32,000 nucleotides of DNA from Candidatus Saccharimonadota bacterium (lineage in GTDB: Bacteria; Bacteroidota; Bacteroidia; Cytophagales; Amoebophilaceae): contig NZ_OZ239769.1 in assembly GCF_965196625.1 (NCBI RefSeq), forward strand, positions 660,001-692,000, in the 5' to 3' direction. The notes under the pieces were generated by a model. It was not told where the DNA came from, searched no databases, and saw nothing but the letters and a program-made list of their open reading frames with translations. Shown here piece by piece: positions 1,474-23,646 of the stretch; positions within the stretch are counted from its first letter, which is position 1; each line of letters begins with the position of its first letter. Both the position numbers and the translations under genes were made by a program.

Positions 1474-2340
1474 CTAGGGCGTGTCGTCAATTATGTGATT
1501 AATATAATGGAAGCGGCAAATTTAATTGCTTCCAAAAAATATTTTCCTCGTTTACAGTAACGCGTAGCAATGCCTCTAAATTGTTTTAATCGAGCAAAAA
1601 ATCGTTCAACTACATTTCGGTTTTTATAATAATTTTTGTCAAAATCACGTGTTTCCTTTCTATTTGATCTAGGAGGGATAACAGCTATTGCTCCCATATT
1701 TTCAATGCATTTAAGAATAGCTTGACTATCATAGGCTCTATCAGCTATTACAAAATTGGCTTTTTTATTATCTAATAAATCCTCAGCAAGTTGACTATCG
1801 TGGACTTGACCACCTGTAACTACCAAATCAACAGGATTTCCAGATTGATCTGATAAACAATGTATCTTACTTGTTAACCCTCCCCGAGAACGACCTAACC
1901 ATTCATCTTGAAATTCTCTATTATTTTTTTTTAGATGCACCAGAAGCATGTTGATGCGCTTTGACAAGCGTTCCATCCATAGCTAAAAAACCCCTATTAC
2001 CATCATCTGATAATGAACGAAAAATAGCGTTAAAAACACCTTTTTTTGACCAAAGTGAAAACCTTCGATGCGCATTTTTCCAGCAACCATACCGCTCTGG
2101 TAGATCACGCCAAGGAGCACCTGTTTTAAACAACCAAAAAATTCCATTTAGAAAGGTTCTATTACTTTTTGCAGTTACGCCTACTGAACCTTGACGACCA
2201 GGAAGTAAATGGGATATTTTTTCAAATTGTGATTCAGTCAATTCGTGACGTCGCATCTTGTGTTATTGATTTATTGAAAGAAATAAAGAAATTAAATCCT
2301 TAATAAATATAACTTATTTTTAATTGACGACACACCCTAG
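1474..2340 (-). mobile_element. Complete IS5-family insertion sequence (IS427/IS1031-like), about 867 bp
   Basis: Terminal inverted repeats are CTAGGGCGTGTCGTCAATTA (1474..1493) and TAATTGACGACACACCCTAG (2321..2340), 20 bp with 1 mismatch. They enclose a two-ORF transposase. The outermost CTAG on each side may instead be a 4-bp target duplication. Confidence 0.85.
1491..2256 (-). CDS. IS5-family DDE transposase, orfA+orfB joined by a programmed -1 frameshift
   Basis: orfA is 1921..2256 (MRRHELTESQFEKISHLLPG...APWRDLPERYG). orfB is 1491..1976 and carries DDE-domain motifs (FVIADRAYDS, YKNRNVVERFFARLKQFRGIATRY). The overlap contains a run of 9 A on the coding strand (T-run 1924..1932 on +), an A-AAA-AAA type slippery site. 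Confidence 0.85.
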
Positions 2341-2553
2341 ATATTCACGCTCAGGGGAAAGCGTGCCATCCTCCCATGCTATTAATTTATTTAATGTATA
2401 ATTGCTACTCATATCTAACATAGATTTAGATCTTTCTATAGTAAGCCCCTTGCAAGCGCTTTCACTTGATTTTTTCTAATTAGAAGTTAAGTGCATTATA
2501 TTTTTAATTATTATTATAGTGTAGCGTGTAATTTTTATATAAATCTTAATGTT

Positions 2554-2862
2554 ATGACCCGATTTACCAGATTTAAAGAAGAGAGATTATCCTTACAAGA
2601 GTATGAAATGATAGTTGGTGGCGGTGGTAATGCATCTAAGACATATGTAGGAGATGGGCTCTATTATAGAGGAAGCAATCTCTATCACGATAATGTTGAT
2701 CCACCAAAAGGTTCTCTGTATGCATTCAAACCAGGTGATAGTGCAGAAATGAAAACAGTGAAAAGCGAGATGTTTCAAGATGCGATAGGATCAAATCCTT
2801 GTGATGAAAAGGTAAAAGGAATGCATTTCCATCCTGAGGTTTTTCAAAAGCGTTCTAAGTAA
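2554..2862 (+). CDS. Small exported-peptide precursor with double-glycine (GG) leader, 102 aa
   Basis: From the ATG at 2554 the product begins MTRFTRFKEERLSLQEYEMIVGG|GGNASKTYVGDG. The segment LSLQEYEMIVGG matches the class II bacteriocin / ColV-type leader consensus LSxxELxxIxGG (hydrophobic at -4, -7, -12; Glu at -8). The 79-aa core is Gly/Tyr-rich at its N-terminus. The upstream GTG at 2491 adds only an implausible AT-rich extension. Confidence 0.55.
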   Translation: MTRFTRFKEERLSLQEYEMIVGGGGNASKTYVGDGLYYRGSNLYHDNVDPPKGSLYAFKPGDSAEMKTVKSEMFQDAIGSNPCDEKVKGMHFHPEVFQKRSK

Positions 2863-3042: not shown

Positions 3043-4325
3043 ATGTTAAATAGGACTATAATTAAAAAATGGAGGCTATGCTTATATAGCTTATTGGTTT
3101 TAGGTGTGCAGCCACTAGTTGCATCGGCAAGTAGAGCTTCCGATGTTGTAAAGCAGGCTAAGCAATCAGTAGTTTCTATTGATTATAAGCCAATCTTAAC
3201 CGCCTATTCCATTCCTTTGGAGGGAGGAGCAACTGGTGTGGTAGTTGATAAACAGGAGGGGTATCTCTTAACCAATGGTATGATCGGTGAACCTACAATC
3301 GCAGAATATACCGTTAGCTTTTTTAATGGTACAAAAGCTAAAGCAAAAATTTGCTATTCTGATCCCTGGTTAAACTTTTCTATTCTAAAACTAGATCCAG
3401 CTATTATTCCAACTGAAGCCCTTGCTGTGAAAATCAGTGAGCAAGAGCCTATAGAGGGGGAAGCTATTTTTACAATTACAATTCCTGAAGAAAAAAGGAC
3501 ACAAAGGATTCTATCCAAGGGTAGGGTATCAGATATAAACTTTGTAAAAGTGGTAAGAATGCCAGAGCATCTTATTGATATCAGCATGGATACCAATGAT
3601 GGAGGAGTTGGTTCTTTAGTATTTAATCAAAAGGGCGAGGGGATTGCTTTAATAAATTTCAAAAGGCAAAGAACACTACACTGGTAGTAAACTCTATACT
3701 AAAAGGTTCTCCTGCAGAAGGGAAGCTTATGGTTGGTGATATTATCTGGGCAATTGATGGTAAGCAGATAGGACCCAGCTTAGTAGATTTTGATATGGCT
3801 CAAAATAAATCTACTAAAGACCATATTCTATTGACTATATGTAGAAGAGGTCGATTTCAGGATATCATCATCCCGCTTTATAATTTAGAGGATCATCGCA
3901 TTACCAGAATGGTTCAGTTTGGTGGAACTGTTTTCTTTGAAACAGATGATTTTTCTAGCCGGCTTGGTGGTGTTTTTCCTAAAACATTGACCTTTTGTTT
4001 CGCACAGCCTAATAACATTTTTAAAGAAATATTTCATAGTTCTTTTAAAAAAATTAAAGTTTATACTTTAGAGTTGGTAGCTGTAAATGGTCAGCCTGTT
4101 TGTCGATTAGATGAACTAATAACGGGAATCCCTACCTGGATAAAACAGCAATATTTTACAGTTGACTATATTAACCATGCAAATGAGCCTGTATTGGGAA
4201 ACAGCTATCTATCTGTTGCGCAAGATCGATACAAAGCCAATGTAGCATATGACACAACCCTACAACTACCTAAAATATGGCTATGGAATGCTTTAAAGTT
4301 ACAGTGGGAAGAAAAATCAATTTAA
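3043..4325 (+). pseudogene. HtrA/Nma111-like trypsin-fold protease + PDZ protein, frameshifted, with apparently substituted catalytic triad
   Basis: ORF 3043..3687 has a signal peptide (LVLGVQPLVASAS) and a trypsin-fold domain. ORF 3729..4325 begins inside a PDZ strand. Its frame is open back to 3627 and reads ...TTLVVNSILKGSPAEGKLMVGDIIWAIDGKQI, so the two ORFs are one gene split by a frameshift near 3650..3687. The barrel-to-PDZ linker also looks shortened. Triad positions read TNGMIG (expected TNxHV), LNFSILKLD (expected D-[FL]-x-[LV]-LK) and DGGVGSLV (expected GxSGxP). Confidence 0.65.
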
Positions 4326-14336: not shown

Positions 14337-14483
14337 ATGCGCACAGAACATTTCATTATTTGGCGTTTGGTGGTAATCTTTATTTTATTTAATCTTTCAG
14401 CATGCTCTTTAGGCCATAAGGTTTGTATGGGCACGCTCAGTAGTTTTAGCGGGAGCAATAGTAGTGAAGACTTTGGTGGATAA
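14337..14483 (+). CDS. Possible small lipoprotein ORF (48 aa), or the N-terminus of a frameshifted gene
   Basis: MRTEHFIIWRLVVIFILFNLSAC|SLGHK has a positive n-region, a hydrophobic core and an LSAC lipobox. It ends at TAA 14481 and overlaps the next ORF in another frame. Confidence 0.3.
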   Translation: MRTEHFIIWRLVVIFILFNLSACSLGHKVCMGTLSSFSGSNSSEDFGG

Positions 14484-14808
14484 GTGTTCTTTAATAAAAG
14501 GTGTAAAAAAACCAGAAGAAAAAAAAGCAAAAACGAAAGAGGAAAAAAATGCAGAGCATGCTGAGATAGTTGGTGCAGTAGTGGCATTTCCGCCTGCATT
14601 AGCTGCTGGATCTGCTGCTATGGTATCTGCAATAGAGATTTTAGGTGCATCATCCATCACACCGCTAATAGGCCTAACGGTGTTCCCACTTATAGGGGGA
14701 CTTTTTATAGGAGGTCCACTAATCATAGCCGGCGCATGGGCAGGCCATAAGATCTATAAGGTATGTCAGAAGCGGAATAATAAGGATTGTAAGCCTGATT
14801 TTAGATAA
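14464..14808 (+). CDS. Hypothetical Gly/Ala-rich membrane protein
   Basis: GTG start. A Lys/Glu-rich stretch (KKPEEKKAKTKEEK) is followed by two hydrophobic Gly-rich segments (IVGAVVAFPPALAAGSAAMVSAI, LIGLTVFPLIGGLFIGGPLIIAGAWAG). No family recognised. Confidence 0.4.
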   Translation: MKTLVDKCSLIKGVKKPEEKKAKTKEEKNAEHAEIVGAVVAFPPALAAGSAAMVSAIEILGASSITPLIGLTVFPLIGGLFIGGPLIIAGAWAGHKIYKVCQKRNNKDCKPDFR

Positions 14809-16838: not shown

Positions 16839-17156
16839 TTGCTTATACTATTTGTTATAGGGCTTACTGGTATATTTGTTTTTTTAGTCCATCCAGCGTT
16901 ACCAGAAACAGAGGTTTGGGCATATATCATGGCTCATGTTCCTCCTGCTTTTAAAGGATGTATTGCTATTGGCTTATTGGCAATGACCATGTCCACAGCT
17001 GATTCTAGCTTACATGCTTGTAGTGTGATTGTTAGCCATGATATCATGGAAATTATACAGGGCACAAAAGATGCACCTTCTTTTGCCCATCAAATCCGCT
17101 TGGCTAAGAGTAGTACCATTGTATACCCTGCCTGCTCTATATTAATGAATTATTAA
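16839..17156 (+). pseudogene. Internal fragment of a sodium:solute symporter gene (third paralogue relic)
   Basis: ...PPAFKGCIAIGLLAMTMSTADSSLHACSVIVSHDI... aligns with aa ~270-375 of the 1159-aa protein (PGMRGILVTAIIALLMSTADSSLHTSAVLFTNDI). It has only a TTG start, and both the N- and C-terminal parts of the transporter are missing. Confidence 0.7.
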
Positions 17157-17426
17157 GATGGGATGGCCCATAAGGCGGTGTGTGGGAATAGATCATTGCT
17201 TATGCGCTTGAAAAGTTAAAATAAAGTTTATAAAAAATTTCATAATTTTGAGCCATTGGGCCATTTAGTCGATTCAATAGGATGCTTGCACTTTTGATGG
17301 TAGGCAGATTATAAAAAAATTATACCTATTGCTTAATATAAATATTATAACTATATATTCGTTGATGCACACTAAGTTGTGTATCTAAGGCTGCTCTCTT
17401 TTTTTTTGATTTTATTTTTTATCCTT

Positions 17427-18152
17427 ATGCCGATACAGCCAAGAAAAATTGGGTTTATAGTTTTTGTATTGCTCTTTTTTGTATGCCTATTTTTTTTTAG
17501 ATCTATTTCTAGTCGCCTTGCTTTAGGTGTAGATTTTATAGAAAAAGCCCATTTTAATGAAGATGGATCTGGTCAATTTAGCATTGAAGTGGATTTAACC
17601 AAGACCAGTAGTTTTATTTCCGTTATTAAATATCTAAATAAGGATTATAAATACAAAGGTATAACTCAATCTATTGGTTATAAGGCTTTTAATGATGCCA
17701 AAGAACGTTTTAAAAAAATAGCTGATATTAGTGACGTCTTCGTGCGCTATAATGAAGAAATGCTTAGCTTTGAGCTGGCCTTTAGATTTCGTACCATTCA
17801 AGCACTTAATAAAGCCATACGGAAAATCAATAAAGGCTTAGCCCCCCCTAAGATTACTTATTTTAGCCTGGATGATGGCCTATTTGTCCGCCAGGATATA
17901 AATGGTATTGCGCAAAAGGTACTTTTTTATCAAAAGTATGATAATTCTTTAATTAAAAGTTTAAATCTAGCCTCCTTTTTTAAGGAAACTACCTATACGA
18001 CGATTTATACTTTCCATAAAGAAGTTGAAGACTATAGCAATCCACTAAGCGAATTAACGAAGGATAAGAAGACCATACGCATTACCCACTATGTTTTTGC
18101 GCCTGATCAGATAGAAGAGTCTATAGGGAATCGTGTTCATTTTATGAAATAA
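17427..18152 (+). CDS. Hypothetical N-terminally membrane-anchored protein
   Basis: The ATG at 17427 gives MPIQPRKIGFIVFVLLFFVCLFFFRS (a single TM segment) followed by a soluble domain of about 215 aa. No recognisable motif. The GTG at 17379 is an alternative start. Confidence 0.5.
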   Translation: MPIQPRKIGFIVFVLLFFVCLFFFRSISSRLALGVDFIEKAHFNEDGSGQFSIEVDLTKTSSFISVIKYLNKDYKYKGITQSIGYKAFNDAKERFKKIADISDVFVRYNEEMLSFELAFRFRTIQALNKAIRKINKGLAPPKITYFSLDDGLFVRQDINGIAQKVLFYQKYDNSLIKSLNLASFFKETTYTTIYTFHKEVEDYSNPLSELTKDKKTIRITHYVFAPDQIEESIGNRVHFMK

Positions 18153-18163
18153 AAATAAGTTGT

Positions 18164-19238
18164 ATGAAAACCCAATATTTTGATCTAAAAGAAAGAATTA
18201 ATGCCTTAAAGGACTGTCTTTGACTATGCTGGTAAAAACAAACAACTGCAGCTATTAGAAGAAGCAGTTGCAACCCCTTCATTTTGGTCTAATCCAGTTG
18301 AGGCCCAACAAACCATCCAAAAAATTAAAGTTTTAAAAGAATCAGTTGATCCGTTTAATACGCTGCAAGCGCAATGGGAAGAACTACTTGTATTAGAAGC
18401 TTTATTTGAAGAAGATCCTGTTGCACAAGAAGAATTATCTGTTGTAGCCTCTTCTTTGTCTGCATTGTTAGAGGAAGTTGAATTAAAAAAAATGCTAGAT
18501 GGCCAAGAGGATCATTTAGATGCAATGATAGATATAAAACCTGGTGCAGGTGGCACAGAAAGCCAAGATTGGGCCTATATGTTGGTACGTATGTATACCA
18601 TGTGGGCGACCAAAAGAGGTTATATGGTTAAAACGATTAACTACCAGCCAGGGGATGGTGCAGGTATAAAGGCTGTTACGCTGGAAGTGATCGGTGCCTA
18701 TGCTTATGGATATATTAGAGCAGAAGTAGGTATCCATCGGTTGGTACGTCTTTCTCCCTTTGATGCAGCAGGTAAACGACATACTTCATTTGCTTCTATA
18801 TATGCCGCACCTGTTATCGATGATTCCATAAAAATTGAAATAAACCCTTCAGATTTAAGTTGGGATACCTTTCGGTCTGGTGGAGCAGGAGGGCAAAATG
18901 TTAATAAAGTAGAAACCGCTGTTCGTGTAAAGCATATTCCTTCTGGCATTACAGTAGAGTGCCAACAAGAACGCTCTCAACTGCAAAACAGAGATAAAGC
19001 TTTGCAATTGCTTAAATCTAAGCTTTACCAACAAGCATTAGAAGAGAAACAGGCTAAACAGCAACAGATAGAAGCAAGCAAAAAAAAGATCGAATTTGGT
19101 GCACAGATTAGGAGTTATATATTGCATCCCTATAAAATTATTAAAGACAATCGAACGGGATATGAACGAAAAGATGTAGAAAATGTTTTAGATGGAGACT
19201 TGGATGGGTTTATAAAAGCCTATTTGTTACAGCGTTAA
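18164..19238 (+). CDS. prfB: Peptide chain release factor 2, with programmed +1 frameshift at 18218..18224
   Basis: ATG 18164 gives [19 protein letters not shown], then an in-frame TGA at 18221 within the canonical CTT TGA C site. The +1 frame continues [14 protein letters not shown]... into ORF 18456..19238. That ORF carries the RF2 SPF motif (LVRLSPFD) and GGQ ([11 protein letters not shown]). Confidence 0.93.
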
Positions 19239-19697: not shown

Positions 19698-20177
19698 ATG
19701 AACAGATACATAAGTACTATGGAACTAGATGCAATAGATAAACATATTTTAAATACCCTTCAAGTTGATTCAAAAATCACAAACGCTGCGCTTGCGCAGA
19801 AAATCAACCTATCTCCTGCCGCTACGTTTGAACGGGTCAAAAAGTTAGAACAACAGGAAGTTATTACAAATTACGCTGCACAGGTTGACCATTCAAAGTT
19901 AGGCTTTTTGGTACACCTCATCGCGGGCATTCGTCTGCAAAAAATCACAGCCGAACATATCAAATTGTTTAAACTTACTATTGATAAAATAGCATCCATT
20001 ACCACTTGCTATCAAGTAATAGGCGACTTTGATTTTATTTTAATGGTGCAGGCTAAAGATTTAGCTAGTTACCAAGCCACAGTAGTAGAAAAAATTCATA
20101 TGCTTCCCTTTATGGATCATGTAAAAACTTTATCCGTTGCCAGGTTGGTTAAAAATAAACCACTATCTATAGAATAA
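19698..20177 (+). CDS. Lrp/AsnC-family transcriptional regulator
   Basis: HTH region LDAIDKHILNTLQVDSKITNAALAQKINLSPAATFERVKKLEQQEVI, followed by an RAM/ACT-like C-terminal domain. Its 3' end overlaps the convergent 20167..23646 gene by 11 nt. Confidence 0.88.
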   Translation: MNRYISTMELDAIDKHILNTLQVDSKITNAALAQKINLSPAATFERVKKLEQQEVITNYAAQVDHSKLGFLVHLIAGIRLQKITAEHIKLFKLTIDKIASITTCYQVIGDFDFILMVQAKDLASYQATVVEKIHMLPFMDHVKTLSVARLVKNKPLSIE

Positions 20178-23100
20178 ATTTTGTGCTGTCATCGGGAGAG
20201 GTATCTTTTTTATTTAAAATTTCCTCGCAAATATCGCTCATTTCCAACACCCAATTCGAAATTTTGTTTTTTTTGCCCCATGGAATATAAAACGCAATCG
20301 TTTCTTTTGCGATTCTTTTTTGGTCTACTAGTTTGCGAAAATGTAAGGTTCTGATGTTGTGGAGCCTATCGGCTAGTTTAACCTGTACTACACGAATATC
20401 TTTACATTGGCCCAGCAGGTTTTTGTTTTCTTTATCATCTAATTTCCATCGGTAACCATTTGTATTGTAATGCGTGACCATGTCTACAATATAGGCCACT
20501 TCATGGCCATACATCAGTTCTACTTGGGTCAGTGGTATCGGTGTATCTTCTACTACGTCATGCAATAAGGCAGCTAGAATGGTTGTAGGGTCTTTCGTAA
20601 CCTCCAACAGTATTTTGGCCACTTCCATAGGGTGGGTATAATAGGGTGCACCAGATTTACGTGTTACAAGCCCATGTGCATTTTTAATAAAATGAATCGT
20701 CTTTTCTACCGTTGCCTTGGTCAGGGCTGTTTCAGCAATAAGCAGTTCTGTTAACTCTTGCTCTTGCGCTACGCTTTCTGCTGTTTCGCTTATTTTATGG
20801 TTTAAAACTGTAGGATCATAGGTTTTAAAGCGCATGACCTTTTGGCCAGCTATAGGCAATACATAGCAGTAGGTTAGTACTGATTGGGTATCTAGTATGG
20901 TGGCATAGCCCCCATGTGCTTGTACAATTTGTCTGCTTTCTGCTTGATAAAGGTGGTTTTCTGATTTCGGTAGATGCGTATACGCTGCCTCATCTGTGAT
21001 ATCATATACCAGTTGTATATTTTGCATGGCTGCATCGGTACTCATACAAAAGGCCAGCGCAGGTAAGGTAAGTGCAGTTTGACCAGATTGTACAGCACTT
21101 TCATAGTCGTACCGCAACACCGTGTTGGCAATGGTTAAGGTAACCATATGATCGGTAGCCTGCTCACTTTTGCTGATCCCAAATAGGTTTACCGTTAAAA
21201 GACGTTCAAAAAGCGTTCGATCTGCCATCAGATGCGTTACTTTTGTTTGATTCCGTACCAGCAATGCAATAGGCTTCTCTAATGCAAGAATCATGCTATG
21301 TGCTTGTAAGATAGCTGAATCGATTTCTATTTGTTGCACTGCTTTTTTGCTCAGCGTTAAAGTTTGTTCTTCTTTTACCCTTTTTAGTAATATCTTGCTA
21401 AACTTGTGCAACTGTTTCATAAATAAGTTGATCGTTTCCCCGAGTTTGGGTTGACCATTTGTGTAGAGGTAATGACAGGGCTTTTGCAGTGTTTCGCGCA
21501 TCTCTTGTAACATTTTATTGCTATAGATGGGATTAAGCCTAGACCAGTTTACTTGGTTATAGATTGCTTCTAGGGCTGCTTTGCGTTCAAAATGTCTAGC
21601 CAATGCTATGATTTTAAGTTTGGTTTCTATTTTGTCACGTAGATATTTATAGGTTCCAGAACCTACTAGAGCAGCTGCTACAAGAGCTGTTGCCAAGATG
21701 AGCTCTACAGAAATTTGGTTGCAATTGGTCAAAAATGTACTCCAAAAGTCCATGCTAGGTGGTATAAATTTATGTAGGAACATGGCTATGCCCAACATGC
21801 TAAGGCCTACTTTTAAAGAAAAAAGCACGATGCCTAAGGCTAGGCTAGCGATAAAAAAAGCAAAAACCATAGGCTTAAAATGGCCTAGTTTTGCAAATTG
21901 TATACCCGAAACAAAAAGCAATGCAAATAATAAAACAGGCCATGCCCAGTGGAATATGAGGCTGCCTTTGGGTTTATAACTGTGTAAAGATGGATAAATC
22001 ATTAAAATGGTTCCAAAAGCTATGACCAAAATATACCAATACGTATAGCGCGAAAAGTAATCTTTCTGCATAAAGTAGAGGGCTGTAAAGGTATGGAGTA
22101 TTATATAAATACCCAATAGTATAAAAGTTCTTTCCTTTTTTGGAAAAAAGTTTTTCCAGTATGCTTTTGTAAAGGGTTGTTTACAACCTTGTAATCTTCT
22201 GCACCACCAGCGCTTGGTTTCTTGATTTTGCAAATCTAATGGGCTAAGATCTTTGATGCCTACCCAACCTGTGTTAGCGCTTTTAGGAAGAAGATAATGG
22301 GTCGTAATCAGAATAAAAAGGTTGCAGTAAAAAGCTTCAGCTATACTTTGTTTTAATATAAATGGTATGAACATATTGATTCCCATGTTTAATAAGACAG
22401 CAGTCGAATGGGGTCTAAAGCCAAAACTAGCCATGATAAGCGGAATGGTAAAGGTAAGATAATACCGACCTGCGATTTCGGATAGTTTTGAGAAATCAAT
22501 CTGATAGGATATCATCAGAATACTGACTATGCCTATGCAAGCAGAAGCAATGCGGGCCGTTCTAAGTGGGTATTTGTTTACCTTTTTAGCTGAGCGACCC
22601 GTTATAGGCAATGCAATATCATTTGTAAATAAAACAGCAGAAGTATGCAAACTGGAATCAGCGGTAGACATCAGTAAAGCAATAATAGCCGTTACTAAAA
22701 TGCCACGCATACCAGGAAAGTAAACAAGCTGTATTAAATAATCTATCACATGCTGACTGGTTGGGATCTCATAATTACCTAAGTGTGCAGCTACTGCAAT
22801 AGTGAAAAAAAGTATAACCAAGATGGCTTCTATAATAATGCCTTTATAGAAAGCTTTTACGGCTTTTTGTGTAGAAGATGCCATATAAAAACGTTGGAGG
22901 CATCGAGGGTCAAATATAGATAGAGAAGCCCAAAAAGGGGCAATCGATATACAGGTTAAAATGTTATTGAGTGTGCATACATTACTAATATTAAAATGAG
23001 GGGCAGTAGTCAGTTTTGCCCAATTGGCTAGTGGATTTTTTACATAGTAAAGGCACATAAAAATTAGGATGGGAAAGCAAATGCCAAAAAGAAAAAACTC

Positions 23101-23646
23101 ATAAACGTCTGTTAGCGCTACAGACCTAGCCCCTCCAAATGTTGCATAACCAATCACTAATAGTGCTAAAATAATAGCTAGGTAGGGTGAAAACTGTTCT
23201 ATTTCAGGATAGAGCGCCTTGGTAATGCTTAGGCCGAATTTCAACTGAGCAACTATTACAAATGTACTGAATAGAATGCCGAATATTCCTGTAATCACTC
23301 GGATCGTTGAACCATATAAACTGCCCATAGACTCAACTATAGAAAGATGTCCTATGAACGCTTTCATTCTCAATACTATAAATCTTGAAGTTACATATAA
23401 GCCTGCTATGTGTACTATATTAGAGATAAGGTAGTACAAACCGCTTTGATAACAGATGTCCATACCATATGTTAAACTTCTACCTCCATAGCTGGTGGCT
23501 ATTAGGGAAATAGCAATCACAAAACTGCGCATTTTTTTATTCCCAACTGCATAATCTTGGAAGGTTGTAATGCCTGTGCCACAATAAAAACCAATGGAAA
23601 GTGTTATGGCTAAGAATATTATTATAATGATTAAATCAATATTCAT
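20167..23646 (-). CDS. Multidomain membrane protein (1159 aa): SSS/SLC5 symporter domain + ~6-TM module + degenerate HisKA/HATPase-like core + RelA/SpoT-type HD hydrolase domain
   Basis: SSS motifs (FGGARSVALTDVYEFF, LLMSTADSSLH) lie in aa 1-455. A second hydrophobic block spans aa ~505-665. The HK-like layout spans aa ~675-935 (ERKAALEAIYNQVNWSRLNPIY; DRTLFERLLTVNLFGISK; LYQAESRQIVQAHGGYATILDTQSVLTYCYVLPI). The HD domain spans aa ~975-1125. It is a single uninterrupted ORF. Confidence 0.85.
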   Translation of the reverse strand: MNIDLIIIIIFLAITLSIGFYCGTGITTFQDYAVGNKKMRSFVIAISLIATSYGGRSLTYGMDICYQSGLYYLISNIVHIAGLYVTSRFIVLRMKAFIGHLSIVESMGSLYGSTIRVITGIFGILFSTFVIVAQLKFGLSITKALYPEIEQFSPYLAIILALLVIGYATFGGARSVALTDVYEFFLFGICFPILIFMCLYYVKNPLANWAKLTTAPHFNISNVCTLNNILTCISIAPFWASLSIFDPRCLQRFYMASSTQKAVKAFYKGIIIEAILVILFFTIAVAAHLGNYEIPTSQHVIDYLIQLVYFPGMRGILVTAIIALLMSTADSSLHTSAVLFTNDIALPITGRSAKKVNKYPLRTARIASACIGIVSILMISYQIDFSKLSEIAGRYYLTFTIPLIMASFGFRPHSTAVLLNMGINMFIPFILKQSIAEAFYCNLFILITTHYLLPKSANTGWVGIKDLSPLDLQNQETKRWWCRRLQGCKQPFTKAYWKNFFPKKERTFILLGIYIILHTFTALYFMQKDYFSRYTYWYILVIAFGTILMIYPSLHSYKPKGSLIFHWAWPVLLFALLFVSGIQFAKLGHFKPMVFAFFIASLALGIVLFSLKVGLSMLGIAMFLHKFIPPSMDFWSTFLTNCNQISVELILATALVAAALVGSGTYKYLRDKIETKLKIIALARHFERKAALEAIYNQVNWSRLNPIYSNKMLQEMRETLQKPCHYLYTNGQPKLGETINLFMKQLHKFSKILLKRVKEEQTLTLSKKAVQQIEIDSAILQAHSMILALEKPIALLVRNQTKVTHLMADRTLFERLLTVNLFGISKSEQATDHMVTLTIANTVLRYDYESAVQSGQTALTLPALAFCMSTDAAMQNIQLVYDITDEAAYTHLPKSENHLYQAESRQIVQAHGGYATILDTQSVLTYCYVLPIAGQKVMRFKTYDPTVLNHKISETAESVAQEQELTELLIAETALTKATVEKTIHFIKNAHGLVTRKSGAPYYTHPMEVAKILLEVTKDPTTILAALLHDVVEDTPIPLTQVELMYGHEVAYIVDMVTHYNTNGYRWKLDDKENKNLLGQCKDIRVVQVKLADRLHNIRTLHFRKLVDQKRIAKETIAFYIPWGKKNKISNWVLEMSDICEEILNKKDTSPDDSTKFIL
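20272..20724 (-). other. HD (p)ppGpp-hydrolase-type domain of the 1159-aa protein
   Basis: RKSGAPYYTHPMEVAKILLEV...TILAALLHDVVEDTPIPLTQVELMYGHEVAYIVDMVTH...IRVVQVKLADRLHNIRTL. The HD dyad codons are at 20557..20562. No synthetase domain follows. Confidence 0.8.

What the first reader, a model, noticed from the sequence alone, without database searches (positions are those of the whole stretch)
20167..23646. Transporter-tethered alarmone hydrolase: SSS permease + TM bundle + dead histidine-kinase core + SpoT-type HD domain in one 1159-aa protein
The ORF reads as four modules. (1) aa ~1-455 form a sodium:solute symporter fold (FGGARSVALTDVYEFF, LLMSTADSSLH). (2) aa ~505-665 form a second block of about six hydrophobic helices. 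(3) aa ~675-935 are laid out like a histidine-kinase core. A DHp-like helix ERKAALEAIYNQVNWSRLNPIY lies about 115 aa before an N-box-like DRTLFERLLTVNLFGISK, followed by FCMSTDAAM and LYQAESRQIVQAHGGYATILDTQSVLTYCYVLPI. The last of these mirrors the GLGLxIxxxIxxxHGGxI...FxFxLP end of HATPase_c. However, there is no histidine at the H-box position and no G1 (DxGxG) or G2 (GxGLG) glycines, so this looks like a pseudokinase scaffold. (4) aa ~975-1125 are a clear RelA/SpoT-type HD hydrolase domain (YYTHPMEVAKIL, LAALLHDVVEDT, KLADRLHNIRTL). The signature His, HD, ED and DRLHN residues are present, and no synthetase domain follows. A hydrolase-only RSH fused to a transporter-like sensor would couple solute binding or transport directly to (p)ppGpp degradation. 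I do not know of a characterised protein with this architecture. The gene also overlaps by 11 nt a convergent Lrp/AsnC (amino-acid-responsive) regulator gene, which fits a nutrient-sensing theme in a host-dependent bacterium.
Basis: partly seen in the sequence, partly recalled or inferred. Interest (0 to 1): 0.85.

Follow-up and report, generated by a model that had tools for sequence, protein, structure and literature searches.

The report
Symporter-like sensor fused to alarmone hydrolase
This Cardinium endosymbiont gene encodes a real 1159-residue membrane protein in which a sodium:solute-symporter-like sensor and a dead histidine-kinase core carry an intact RelA/SpoT-type (p)ppGpp hydrolase domain; the family is already catalogued and expanded in Cardinium and Amoebophilus, but nobody has characterised it.

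Summary
ORF 20167..23646(-) is intact and identical to WP_419241074.1 of the Cardinium endosymbiont of Nabis limbatus. All four modules were confirmed.

- **Symporter part:** Pfam SSF match, and a fold match to the sialic acid symporter SiaT.
- **Second membrane block:** about six helices.
- **Kinase-like core:** it is homologous to real SSF+HisKA+HATPase_c relatives and has their fold. It lacks the H-box His, the N-box Asn and the G1/G2 glycines.
- **HD_4 domain:** 36-38% identical to the Rel/SpoT hydrolase domain, with every catalytic residue kept. No synthetase domain follows.

The gene is not a chimera. Of the 120 listed protein clusters, 66 share the architecture, from Cardinium, Amoebophilus and other Bacteroidota.

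It is not unnoticed either. Atkinson 2011 counted the Amoebophilus copies as a "rickSpo[H] expansion". Brown 2018 called them "spoT/sodium glucose cotransporter". No paper found here analyses the architecture or the dead kinase.

The most likely function is a transporter-like receptor that controls (p)ppGpp hydrolysis directly. This is inferred, not shown.

Two points remain open or weak. I could not test whether Cardinium has a (p)ppGpp synthetase. The 11-nt overlap with the Lrp/AsnC gene is real but was not seen at the three other loci where the downstream neighbour could be checked.

Interest is moderate.

The parts
20167..23646 (-). Whole gene, 1159 aa: SSS-like domain, 6-TM block, pseudo-histidine-kinase core and RSH hydrolase domain
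   Evidence: ORF. 100% identical to WP_419241074.1. Full-length AlphaFold model has pLDDT 85.9 and pTM 0.76.
22282..23646 (-). aa 1-455: sodium:solute symporter (SSS/SLC5, LeuT-fold) domain
   Evidence: Pfam SSF aa 32-380, E 8e-16. NCBIfam sss, panF and PutP partial matches. Foldseek matches SiaT 5nva (E 2e-11, TMt 0.81), CHT1 and SGLT. The MSTADS motif (M326, S327, T328, D330, S331) is at least 90% conserved or invariant across 78 relatives.
22135..22281 (-). aa 456-504: strongly basic juxtamembrane segment (GWVGIKD motif plus an amphipathic helix at aa 468-500), inferred cytoplasmic
   Evidence: Sequence. H450 and G460 are nearly invariant. Helices 468-492 and 494-500 appear in the model.
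21646..22134 (-). aa 505-667: second membrane block of about six helices, shared with the real-kinase relatives and with SSS-less relatives
   Evidence: Hydropathy peaks. Model helices 505-524, 528-555, 563-587, 592-608, 611-624 and 647 onward. The L001 695-aa protein aligns to aa 512-1126 without any SSS domain. Both flanks are basic, so an even number of membrane passes is inferred.
21367..21645 (-). aa 668-760: signalling helix plus a DHp-like helical hairpin. The H-box position is E718, with no phospho-acceptor His
   Evidence: Alignment with real kinases. At that column, His is 19/19 in real kinases and D/K/E/other in the HD family. Model helices 647-702, 706-729 and 733-760.
20842..21366 (-). 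aa 761-935: degenerate CA (HATPase_c/Bergerat-like) domain. N-box Asn, G1 DxGxG and G2 GxGxG are lost; the AH(G/Y)G motif is kept
   Evidence: hhalign probability 91.6%, E 8e-7. Residue counts. Alpha/beta topology in the models. Foldseek top 50 are all histidine-kinase cores, including RetS, DivL and the phyA kinase-related domain.
20722..20841 (-). aa 936-975: linker with the conserved ET.ES.AQEQEL motif
   Evidence: Alignment and consensus.
20212..20721 (-). aa 976-1145: RelA/SpoT-type HD (HD_4) hydrolase domain, equivalent to RelSeq aa 25-198. The protein ends where a long RSH would start its synthetase domain
   Evidence: Pfam HD_4 E 1e-22. TIGR00691 positions 4-158 of 687 only. phmmer to 1vj7 E 1e-32, with R996, H1005, H1029, D1030, E1033, D1034, D1093 and N1097 aligned to R44, H53, H77, D78, E81, D82, D144 and N148. 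Foldseek matches SpoT 7qpr, RelSeq 24io and S. aureus Rel 7oiw at rmsd 2.3-3.8 A.
23851..26757 (-). Tandem upstream paralogue, 968 aa: the same SSS, TM block and pseudo-kinase, but it ends right after the CA-like domain (no HD)
   Evidence: ORF. Pfam SSF only. 45% identical to the 1159-aa protein but 68% identical to the 965-aa gene that sits in the same position in C. hertigii.
16839..17156 (+). Pseudogene fragment of a third family member (SSS TM8 region, ...LLAMTMSTADSSLHACS...)
   Evidence: blastx E 1.7e-5 to aa 311-378. ORF translation.

Best explanation
The gene encodes a one-polypeptide membrane signalling enzyme of a family that is expanded in Amoebophilaceae (Cardinium, Amoebophilus).

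Anatomy (shown): an N-terminal SSS/SLC5-type domain and a second six-helix membrane block lead into a long signalling helix. This runs into a DHp-like hairpin and a CA-like domain that descend from a real histidine kinase but can no longer autophosphorylate. The chain ends in a catalytically intact RelA/SpoT-type Mn-dependent pyrophosphohydrolase domain with no synthetase.

Mechanism (inferred):
1. The SSS domain binds, and perhaps transports, a host-derived solute together with Na+.
2. The conformational change passes through the membrane block and the (probably dimeric) pseudokinase scaffold.
3. This switches the C-terminal hydrolase, so that (p)ppGpp is degraded according to nutrient supply. 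The phosphorelay output of the ancestral SSS-kinase has been replaced by direct second-messenger turnover.

Paralogues would differ in the solute they sense.
For: - The architecture is confirmed by Pfam and NCBIfam, alignment to real SSF+HisKA+HATPase_c relatives, hhalign, two AlphaFold models and Foldseek.
- Kinase motifs are lost while HD catalytic residues are 96-100% conserved in 55 family members down to about 21% overall identity. This indicates selection on hydrolase chemistry, not on kinase chemistry.
- The HD module is 41-48% identical to the hydrolase domains of bona fide long RSHs and 36-38% identical to solved Rel enzymes bound to (p)ppGpp.
- The membrane part alone separates the pseudokinase family from the real kinases in 33 of 40 NJ bootstraps. 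This fits a single replacement event.
- No response regulator was found in the window ORFs scanned or among the genes called at four related loci.
- SSS-domain sensor kinases that both transport and signal (CbrA) are established.
- Amoebophilus, which carries the family, also has one long Rel[HS] synthetase/hydrolase.
Against: - There is no biochemical evidence for hydrolysis, solute binding, transport or coupling.
- Whether this Cardinium genome encodes any (p)ppGpp synthetase could not be tested.
- RSH-type HD domains can act on other substrates. Mesh1 is reported to act on NADPH, and a solved (p)ppApp hydrolase is a distant hit.
- The direction of signalling is assumed.
- HD-less paralogues (968 aa here) and SSS-less relatives with a dead HD (L001) show that the modules can function, or at least persist, without the hydrolase.
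- The SSS part is too divergent for any PDB sequence hit, so transport competence is uncertain.
Confidence: 0.6

Rival explanations
1. It is primarily a working nutrient transporter. The cytoplasmic tail is regulatory in the opposite direction: the HD domain binds or hydrolyses (p)ppGpp and, through the pseudokinase, gates uptake according to the cell's alarmone level.
For: The SSS fold and the MSTADS motif are well conserved. RefSeq names it a transporter. Driscoll 2017 treats the related SLC5sbd and SLC5sbd+HK proteins as metabolite importers of obligate intracellular bacteria. HD-less paralogues persist as conserved orthologues. CbrA does transport histidine.
Against: Full conservation of the catalytic residues, not only the binding residues, of the HD domain points to turnover as the selected activity. 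SSS-less relatives keep the TM block, pseudokinase and HD cassette. The ancestry is from sensor kinases, where information flows outward from the membrane domain.
Confidence: 0.17
2. The HD domain is an active hydrolase, but its physiological substrate is not the bacterium's own (p)ppGpp. Candidates are (p)ppApp, pGpp, NADPH or a host-derived nucleotide, because reduced Cardinium genomes may have lost every alarmone synthetase.
For: A synthetase could not be shown for Cardinium. The literature searches found none described, and the closest long RSHs are from unrelated phyla. Mesh1 and a (p)ppApp hydrolase are distant structural relatives. Hydrolase-only expansions also occur in Rickettsiales.
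Against: The domain is much closer to long Rel/SpoT hydrolase domains (E 1e-32, 36-48% identity) than to Mesh1 or the (p)ppApp hydrolase (E 1e-11 to 4e-4). The residues that contact ppGpp in RelSeq (R44, K45, S46, H53, HD, ED, DRLHN) are kept. Amoebophilus has a Rel[HS] alongside the family.
Confidence: 0.17
3. The middle module is still a working kinase that uses a non-canonical acceptor or nucleotide site, and the protein is a bifunctional kinase/hydrolase.
For: The DHp+CA fold is intact. H911 and G913 are invariant in both real kinases and this family.
Against: The H-box His, the Mg-binding N-box Asn, G1 and G2 are all replaced throughout the family. Pfam HisKA and HATPase_c do not score even at E<=1. 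No response regulator was found in the window ORFs scanned or among the genes called at four related loci.
Confidence: 0.03
4. The ORF is an assembly chimera or a decaying pseudogene.
For: Some relatives are split (P0045, 990 aa, followed by a 144-aa HD ORF). A family fragment lies at 16839..17156.
Against: The reading frame is uninterrupted. Collinear full-length homologues occur in 66 of the 120 listed clusters from independent assemblies, including complete genomes. Catalytic residues are conserved. The full-length model is confident.
Confidence: 0.01

Closest known systems
SSS-domain sensor histidine kinases: CbrA, CrbS/MxtR (SLC5/STAC family), and the 'SLC5sbd+HK' proteins of Rickettsiales and Bacteroidota (e.g. 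P0087, P0088, P0098)
   Same: An N-terminal SSS/SLC5 domain is fused in one chain to a cytoplasmic DHp+CA core. The ~930-aa relatives P0087, P0088 and P0098 share the second TM block and align along the whole length up to the end of the CA domain. CbrA is a proven transporter-receptor.
   Different: The H, N, G1 and G2 boxes are lost here, and an RSH hydrolase is appended. Unlike CbrA and CrbS there is no soluble STAC or PAS domain; a six-helix membrane block sits in that position. No partner response regulator was found nearby.
Hydrolase (HD) domain of long RelA/SpoT homologues (RelSeq 1vj7/24io, S. aureus Rel 7oiw, A. baumannii SpoT 7qpr)
   Same: 36-38% identity over about 170-195 residues, rmsd 2.3-3.8 A, all metal- and substrate-binding residues conserved.
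   Different: There are no synthetase, TGS or ACT domains. The domain is C-terminal to a membrane sensor rather than N-terminal to a synthetase, so its regulation must differ.
rickSpo[H] group of 'small alarmone hydrolases' (Atkinson 2011; Jimmy 2020)
   Same: Hydrolase-only RSHs that nest within the long RSHs and have multiplied in Rickettsiales and in Amoebophilus (14 copies). The Amoebophilus homologues of this protein (Aasi_0939 and others) are almost certainly those copies.
   Different: These proteins are not small. They are ~1150-aa polytopic membrane proteins. The census papers do not mention the symporter or kinase-like parts ('symporter' and 'transmembrane' have 0 occurrences in Atkinson 2011; 'transmembrane' has 0 in Jimmy 2020).
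Histidine-kinase-fold pseudokinases and scaffolds (DivL, RetS, the plant phytochrome kinase-related domain)
   Same: A DHp+CA fold is retained for signal transmission without canonical autophosphorylation. These are among the top structural matches.
   Different: These proteins act on other two-component proteins, whereas here the scaffold is covalently joined to an enzyme output. The similarity is in fold only (10-19% identity).

Membership tests
Sodium:solute symporter family (SSS, PF00474, TC 2.A.21) | Significant match to the family profile | tested here: met
   Pfam SSF 58.3 bits against a cut-off of 22.8, aa 32-380. The TIGR00813 match is below its trusted cut-off.
Sodium:solute symporter family (SSS, PF00474, TC 2.A.21) | LeuT-type SSS fold | tested here: met
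   Foldseek matches SiaT 5nva (E 2e-11, TMt 0.81, rmsd 3.7 A over 472 columns), and also CHT1, SGLT1/2, NIS and vSGLT.
Sodium:solute symporter family (SSS, PF00474, TC 2.A.21) | Na+ site Ser/Thr pair on TM8 and actual Na+-coupled transport | tested here: inconclusive
   The MSTADS motif is nearly invariant. Its equivalence to PutP S340/T341 rests on my own knowledge and was not aligned here. Transport cannot be tested with these tools. phmmer finds no PDB homologue.
Histidine kinase (HisKA PF00512 + HATPase_c PF02518) | Phospho-acceptor His in the H box | tested here: not met
   The column holds His in 19/19 real relatives, E718 in the query, and D/K/E/other in the HD family.
Histidine kinase (HisKA PF00512 + HATPase_c PF02518) | ATP-binding N, G1 and G2 boxes | tested here: not met
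   The second N-box Asn, the G1 D.G and the G2 G.G are 18-19/19 in real kinases and are replaced here (G823, T870/A872, H898/Y900). No Pfam hit at E<=1.
Histidine kinase (HisKA PF00512 + HATPase_c PF02518) | DHp + CA fold and common descent | tested here: met
   hhalign 91.6%, E 8e-7. Foldseek top 50 are all kinase cores. Full-length collinearity with SSF+HisKA+HATPase_c proteins. It therefore works as a kinase-derived scaffold and is not a kinase.
Two-component system | Cognate response regulator encoded nearby | tested here: not met
   No REC-domain gene was found in the window ORFs scanned or among the genes called at four related loci.
RelA/SpoT homologue (RSH) hydrolases (HD_4, PF13328) | Profile match above threshold | tested here: met
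   HD_4 81 bits against a cut-off of 27.2. HD 34.5 bits against 22.
RelA/SpoT homologue (RSH) hydrolases (HD_4, PF13328) | Catalytic and metal residues (RelSeq R44, H53, H77-D78, E81-D82, D144, N148) | tested here: met
   All are present (R996, H1005, H1029-D1030, E1033-D1034, D1093, N1097) and are 96-100% conserved in 55 relatives.
RelA/SpoT homologue (RSH) hydrolases (HD_4, PF13328) | (p)ppGpp pyrophosphohydrolase activity | not testable with these tools
   Needs an enzyme assay or a toxSAS-neutralisation test.
Hydrolase-only RSH, rickSpo[H] subgroup (Atkinson 2011) | HD domain without a synthetase domain | tested here: met
   The match to TIGR00691 covers positions 4-158 of 687 only. The protein ends at the RelSeq-equivalent residue ~198 and has no RelA_SpoT hit.
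Hydrolase-only RSH, rickSpo[H] subgroup (Atkinson 2011) | Assignment by the authors' subgroup HMM or phylogeny | not tested
   The HMMs are not available here. The assignment is inferred from the authors' listing of 14 rickSpo[H] in Amoebophilus asiaticus and from the homology of Aasi_0939 (P0063) to the query.
SLC5/STAC sensor kinases (CbrA/CrbS type) | Soluble STAC (and PAS) domain between the SSS domain and the kinase | tested here: not met
   No such Pfam hit at E<=1. The interval is occupied by a basic segment and six membrane helices.

The most novel reading that the evidence does not exclude
The family may be a previously unrecognised class of one-component 'transceptor' in which a symporter-like sensor sets alarmone levels directly. 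In this reading the ancestral kinase was converted into an allosteric, dimerising scaffold that gates an RSH hydrolase. Each of the 2-18 paralogues per genome would read a different host metabolite. Conserved HD-less partners, such as the 968-aa tandem neighbour, could modulate the HD-bearing protein through DHp-type heterodimers, as RetS does with GacS. This would give host-restricted bacteria a stringent response wired straight to host nutrient supply. It would also mean that RSH censuses have misfiled large membrane receptors as 'small alarmone hydrolases'.
Probability: 0.3. Interest if true: 0.75.

Novelty: new variant of a known kind. Interest (0 to 1): 0.5.

Why it matters
If the inferred mechanism is right, this is a direct link between a transporter-like membrane sensor and degradation of the stringent-response alarmone, with no phosphorelay and no ribosome sensing. 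That would be a new input route into (p)ppGpp control.

It would also help explain why obligate intracellular Bacteroidota, and in parallel Rickettsiales, multiply hydrolase-only RSH genes.

The family is a clean natural example of a histidine kinase turned into a pseudokinase scaffold for another enzyme.

On the practical side, current annotation is wrong in two ways. RefSeq's 'sodium:solute symporter family transporter' omits the hydrolase. UniRef's 'bifunctional (p)ppGpp synthase/hydrolase' and 'GTP pyrophosphokinase' claim a synthetase that is not there.

The gene itself is an ordinary member of a family that is already catalogued, which limits the surprise.

Tried and rejected
- **Looking for a Cardinium (p)ppGpp synthetase.** Three literature searches and name look-ups on the closest long RSHs (Spirochaetaceae, Mitsuokella, Fimadaptatus, none from Amoebophilaceae) gave nothing. 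The tools cannot scan one chosen genome, so the question stays open.
- **Genome-contig scan with the whole protein.** The patterns were too specific and only one locus (Cardinium cBcalN2) came back. It was useless for counting paralogues or establishing distribution.
- **phmmer of the SSS part against PDB.** No hit. Only the fold search placed it.
- **Name look-ups on short HD-only hits and mid-length variants.** No organism names were returned, so the link to Rickettsiales rickSpo could not be checked directly.
- **Schmitz-Esser 2010 (Amoebophilus genome paper).** Not held in the library.
- **First NJ bootstrap script.** It timed out. A faster version was used.
- **Rejected: Lrp/AsnC as a functional partner.** The overlap was not seen at the other loci checked.
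- **Rejected: the HD-less 968-aa neighbour as a fresh truncation.** It is 68% identical to its positional counterpart in C. hertigii and only 45% identical to its neighbour. P0045, by contrast, really is a split gene.

Full report
**What is there**

The ORF at 20167..23646 on the minus strand is uninterrupted, 1159 aa, and starts with ATG. It is 100% identical to WP_419241074.1, annotated 'sodium:solute symporter family transporter', on a 1,158,289-bp contig of the Cardinium endosymbiont of Nabis limbatus. Its N-terminus aligns from residue 1 with its homologues.

The surrounding genes are housekeeping: a SurA-like PPIase, FtsA, FtsZ, SecA, Mrp/ApbC, HIT, prfB, MurA and UvrD. There is also an IS fragment. 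The convergent 159-aa gene at 19698..20177 is an Lrp/AsnC regulator, and it overlaps the 3' end by 11 nt as stated.

**Module by module**

1. *Symporter domain.* Pfam SSF covers aa 32-380 (58.3 bits, cut-off 22.8). NCBIfam gives sub-threshold sss, PanF and PutP matches. The sequence is too divergent for any PDB hit by phmmer. However, a confident full-length AlphaFold model (78-sequence alignment, pLDDT 85.9, pTM 0.76) superposes on the sialic acid symporter SiaT (E 2e-11, TM-score 0.81 on the target) and on CHT1, SGLT1/2, NIS and vSGLT. The MSTADS motif is nearly invariant in 78 relatives. By my own knowledge this is the TM8 Na+-site motif of PutP; I did not test that equivalence.

2. *Second membrane block.* After a strongly basic segment (aa 456-504), hydropathy and the model give about six helices between aa 505 and 667. 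Both flanks are basic, so I infer an even number of passes and a cytoplasmic C-terminal half.

3. *Kinase-like core.* No Pfam HisKA or HATPase_c hit appears even at E<=1. The homology search nevertheless recovered about 25 relatives of ~930 aa with SSF+HisKA+HATPase_c. They are collinear with the query up to the end of the kinase-like region.
   - Independent profiles of the two groups align over the CA domain with 91.6% probability and E 8e-7.
   - A model of aa 645-960, built from an alignment that contained no real kinase (pLDDT 80), returns only histidine-kinase DHp+CA cores in its top 50 PDB matches (E 2e-9 to 2e-7). These include RetS, DivL and the phytochrome kinase-related domain.
   - Column counts show the following. 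H-box His: 19/19 in real kinases, E718 here. Second N-box Asn: 19/19, G823 here. G1 D.G: 18-19/19, T870/A872 here. G2 G.G: 19/19, H898/Y900 here. Only the AH(G/Y)G motif (H911, G913) is invariant in both groups.
- This is a kinase-derived pseudokinase.

4. *Hydrolase domain.* HD_4 covers aa 986-1123 (81 bits, cut-off 27.2). phmmer gives E 1e-32 to RelSeq aa 25-198. R44, H53, H77-D78, E81-D82, D144 and N148 all align to identical residues, and these positions are 96-100% conserved in 55 family members. The fold matches SpoT, RelSeq and S. aureus Rel at 2.3-3.8 A. The protein ends where a long RSH would begin its synthetase domain, and only positions 4-158 of the 687-position spoT_relA model are matched.

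**Family and evolution**

Of the 120 listed 90%-identity clusters, 66 carry HD_4 at ~1110-1185 aa. They come from many Cardinium strains, Amoebophilus asiaticus (Aasi_0939 and others), Amoebophilaceae and other Bacteroidota MAGs. Some lie on contigs of 0.6-0.9 Mb.

One C. hertigii genome has 13 distinct clusters. The present genome has this gene, the 968-aa tandem neighbour, a 662-aa relative (P0056) and a fragment at 16839..17156.

An exhaustive search with aa 668-1159 finds 93 clusters (50% identity) at E<=1e-30, essentially all with the pseudokinase+HD cassette. After these come ordinary long RSHs of 700-750 aa, whose N-terminal HD is 41-48% identical.

A neighbour-joining tree of the membrane part alone separates the real kinases from the pseudokinase family in 33 of 40 bootstraps. 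This fits one ancestral event that killed the kinase and added the hydrolase.

Several variants exist:
- HD-less forms. The 968-aa neighbour is 68% identical to the gene in the same position in C. hertigii and only 45% identical to its neighbour, so it is a conserved type.
- A split gene: P0045 followed by a 144-aa HD ORF.
- SSS-less 695- and 731-aa proteins with the TM block, the pseudokinase and a degenerate HD (LLYDLVNHA, KLAERLYDLRH).

Gene neighbourhoods are not conserved. They contain no response regulator, and no Lrp/AsnC gene lies next to the homologue at the other loci checked.

**What is already known**

- Atkinson et al. 2011 list Amoebophilus asiaticus as 'Rel[HS] + rickSpo[H] expansion' (15 RSHs, 14 of them hydrolase-only). 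They do not mention any symporter or membrane part.
- Jimmy et al. 2020 note that RickSpo members sit among the long RSHs and seem to have lost domains secondarily. This agrees with the high similarity to Rel found here.
- Brown et al. [quoted passage not shown]
- Driscoll et al. 2017 describe SLC5sbd and SLC5sbd+HK proteins that have proliferated in Orientia and Occidentia and spread laterally to Amoebophilus and Cardinium.
- SSS-domain sensor kinases (CbrA, CrbS) are established transporter-receptors.
- No paper in the library analyses the four-module architecture, the dead kinase or the function.

**How it most likely works**

Shown: the anatomy, the loss of kinase chemistry, the retention of hydrolase chemistry, and descent from SSS sensor kinases.

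Inferred: the SSS domain binds or transports a host solute with Na+. The signal runs through the membrane block and the long helix 647-702 into a DHp-like bundle and CA-like domain. These act as a (probably dimeric) allosteric scaffold that switches the C-terminal (p)ppGpp hydrolase on or off. I give this 0.6.

The main rivals are these:
- Information flows the other way, with (p)ppGpp gating a transporter (0.17).
- The substrate is not (p)ppGpp, because Cardinium may lack a synthetase (0.17).
- A still-active kinase (0.03) or an artefact (0.01) is effectively excluded.

**What could not be settled**

I could not determine whether this genome encodes a (p)ppGpp synthetase.

**Verdict**

The gene is an ordinary member of a catalogued but uncharacterised family. 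Relative to characterised systems, it is a new variant of the SSS transceptor in which a pseudokinase carries an alarmone hydrolase output. Interest is moderate (0.5).

Noticed in passing
window 23851..26757 (-): A tandem 968-aa paralogue has the same SSS, TM block and pseudokinase but stops right after the CA-like domain. It is the positional orthologue (68% identity) of a 965-aa gene in C. hertigii, so the HD-less + HD-bearing pair is conserved between at least two Cardinium lineages. The pair is not present next to the Culicoides Cardinium homologue.
   Followed up: partly
window 16839..17156 (+): A 105-codon remnant of a third family member (SSS TM8 region, 'LLAMTMSTADSSLHACS') lies between the Mrp/ApbC gene and a 257-aa ORF. 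It is probably a pseudogene fragment.
   Followed up: partly
window 18218..18224 and 18456..19238 (+): prfB (RF2): the listed ORF is only the C-terminal part. The classical CTTTGAC +1 frameshift site lies upstream at 18218, as expected for programmed frameshifting.
   Followed up: partly
L001:15723-17918 (+) and L001:11455-13542 (-) (C. hertigii GCA_022763005.1): Two proteins of 731 and 695 aa (56% identical to each other) have no SSS domain. They consist of an N-terminal ~6-TM block, the CA-like 'AHYGY..VLP' region and an HD_4 domain whose catalytic residues are replaced (LLYDLVNHA; KLAERLYDLRH). They are SSS-less, apparently dead-hydrolase relatives of unknown role.
   Followed up: partly
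L004:6001-9462 (Cardinium sp. GCA_025268635.1): P0045 (990 aa, 'HD-less') is immediately followed by a separate 144-aa HD_4 ORF. This is a family member split by a stop or frameshift, or a genuine two-gene version.
   Followed up: no
P0297, P0296, P0072 (eukprot entries): Family members turn up in eukaryote transcriptome sets: a full-length 1149-aa member (P0297) and a 377-aa fragment (P0296) in a diatom transcriptome (Astrosyne radiata, MMETSP), and a 961-aa SSF-only relative (P0072) in another eukprot record. They probably come from an unrecognised Amoebophilaceae-like symbiont or contaminant.
   Followed up: no
database names for P0001, P0010-P0028: The annotation is inconsistent and partly wrong. 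RefSeq calls these proteins 'sodium:solute symporter family protein', which misses the hydrolase. UniRef calls paralogues 'Bifunctional (p)ppGpp synthase/hydrolase SpoT' or 'GTP pyrophosphokinase', although no synthetase domain is present.
   Followed up: yes
window 27188..28555 (+), 17379..18152 (+), 2491..2862 (+), 3729..4325 (+), 14464..14808 (+): Five ORFs of 114-455 aa have no Pfam match at E<=1e-5. The 455-aa and 257-aa ones flank the family locus, and blastx shows no similarity to the family.
   Followed up: partly
window 1491..2256 (-); L003 flanks of Aasi_0939: A DDE transposase fragment lies in the window. In Amoebophilus the homologue is flanked by IS and integrase genes, which fits the family's proliferation alongside mobile elements.
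   Followed up: no
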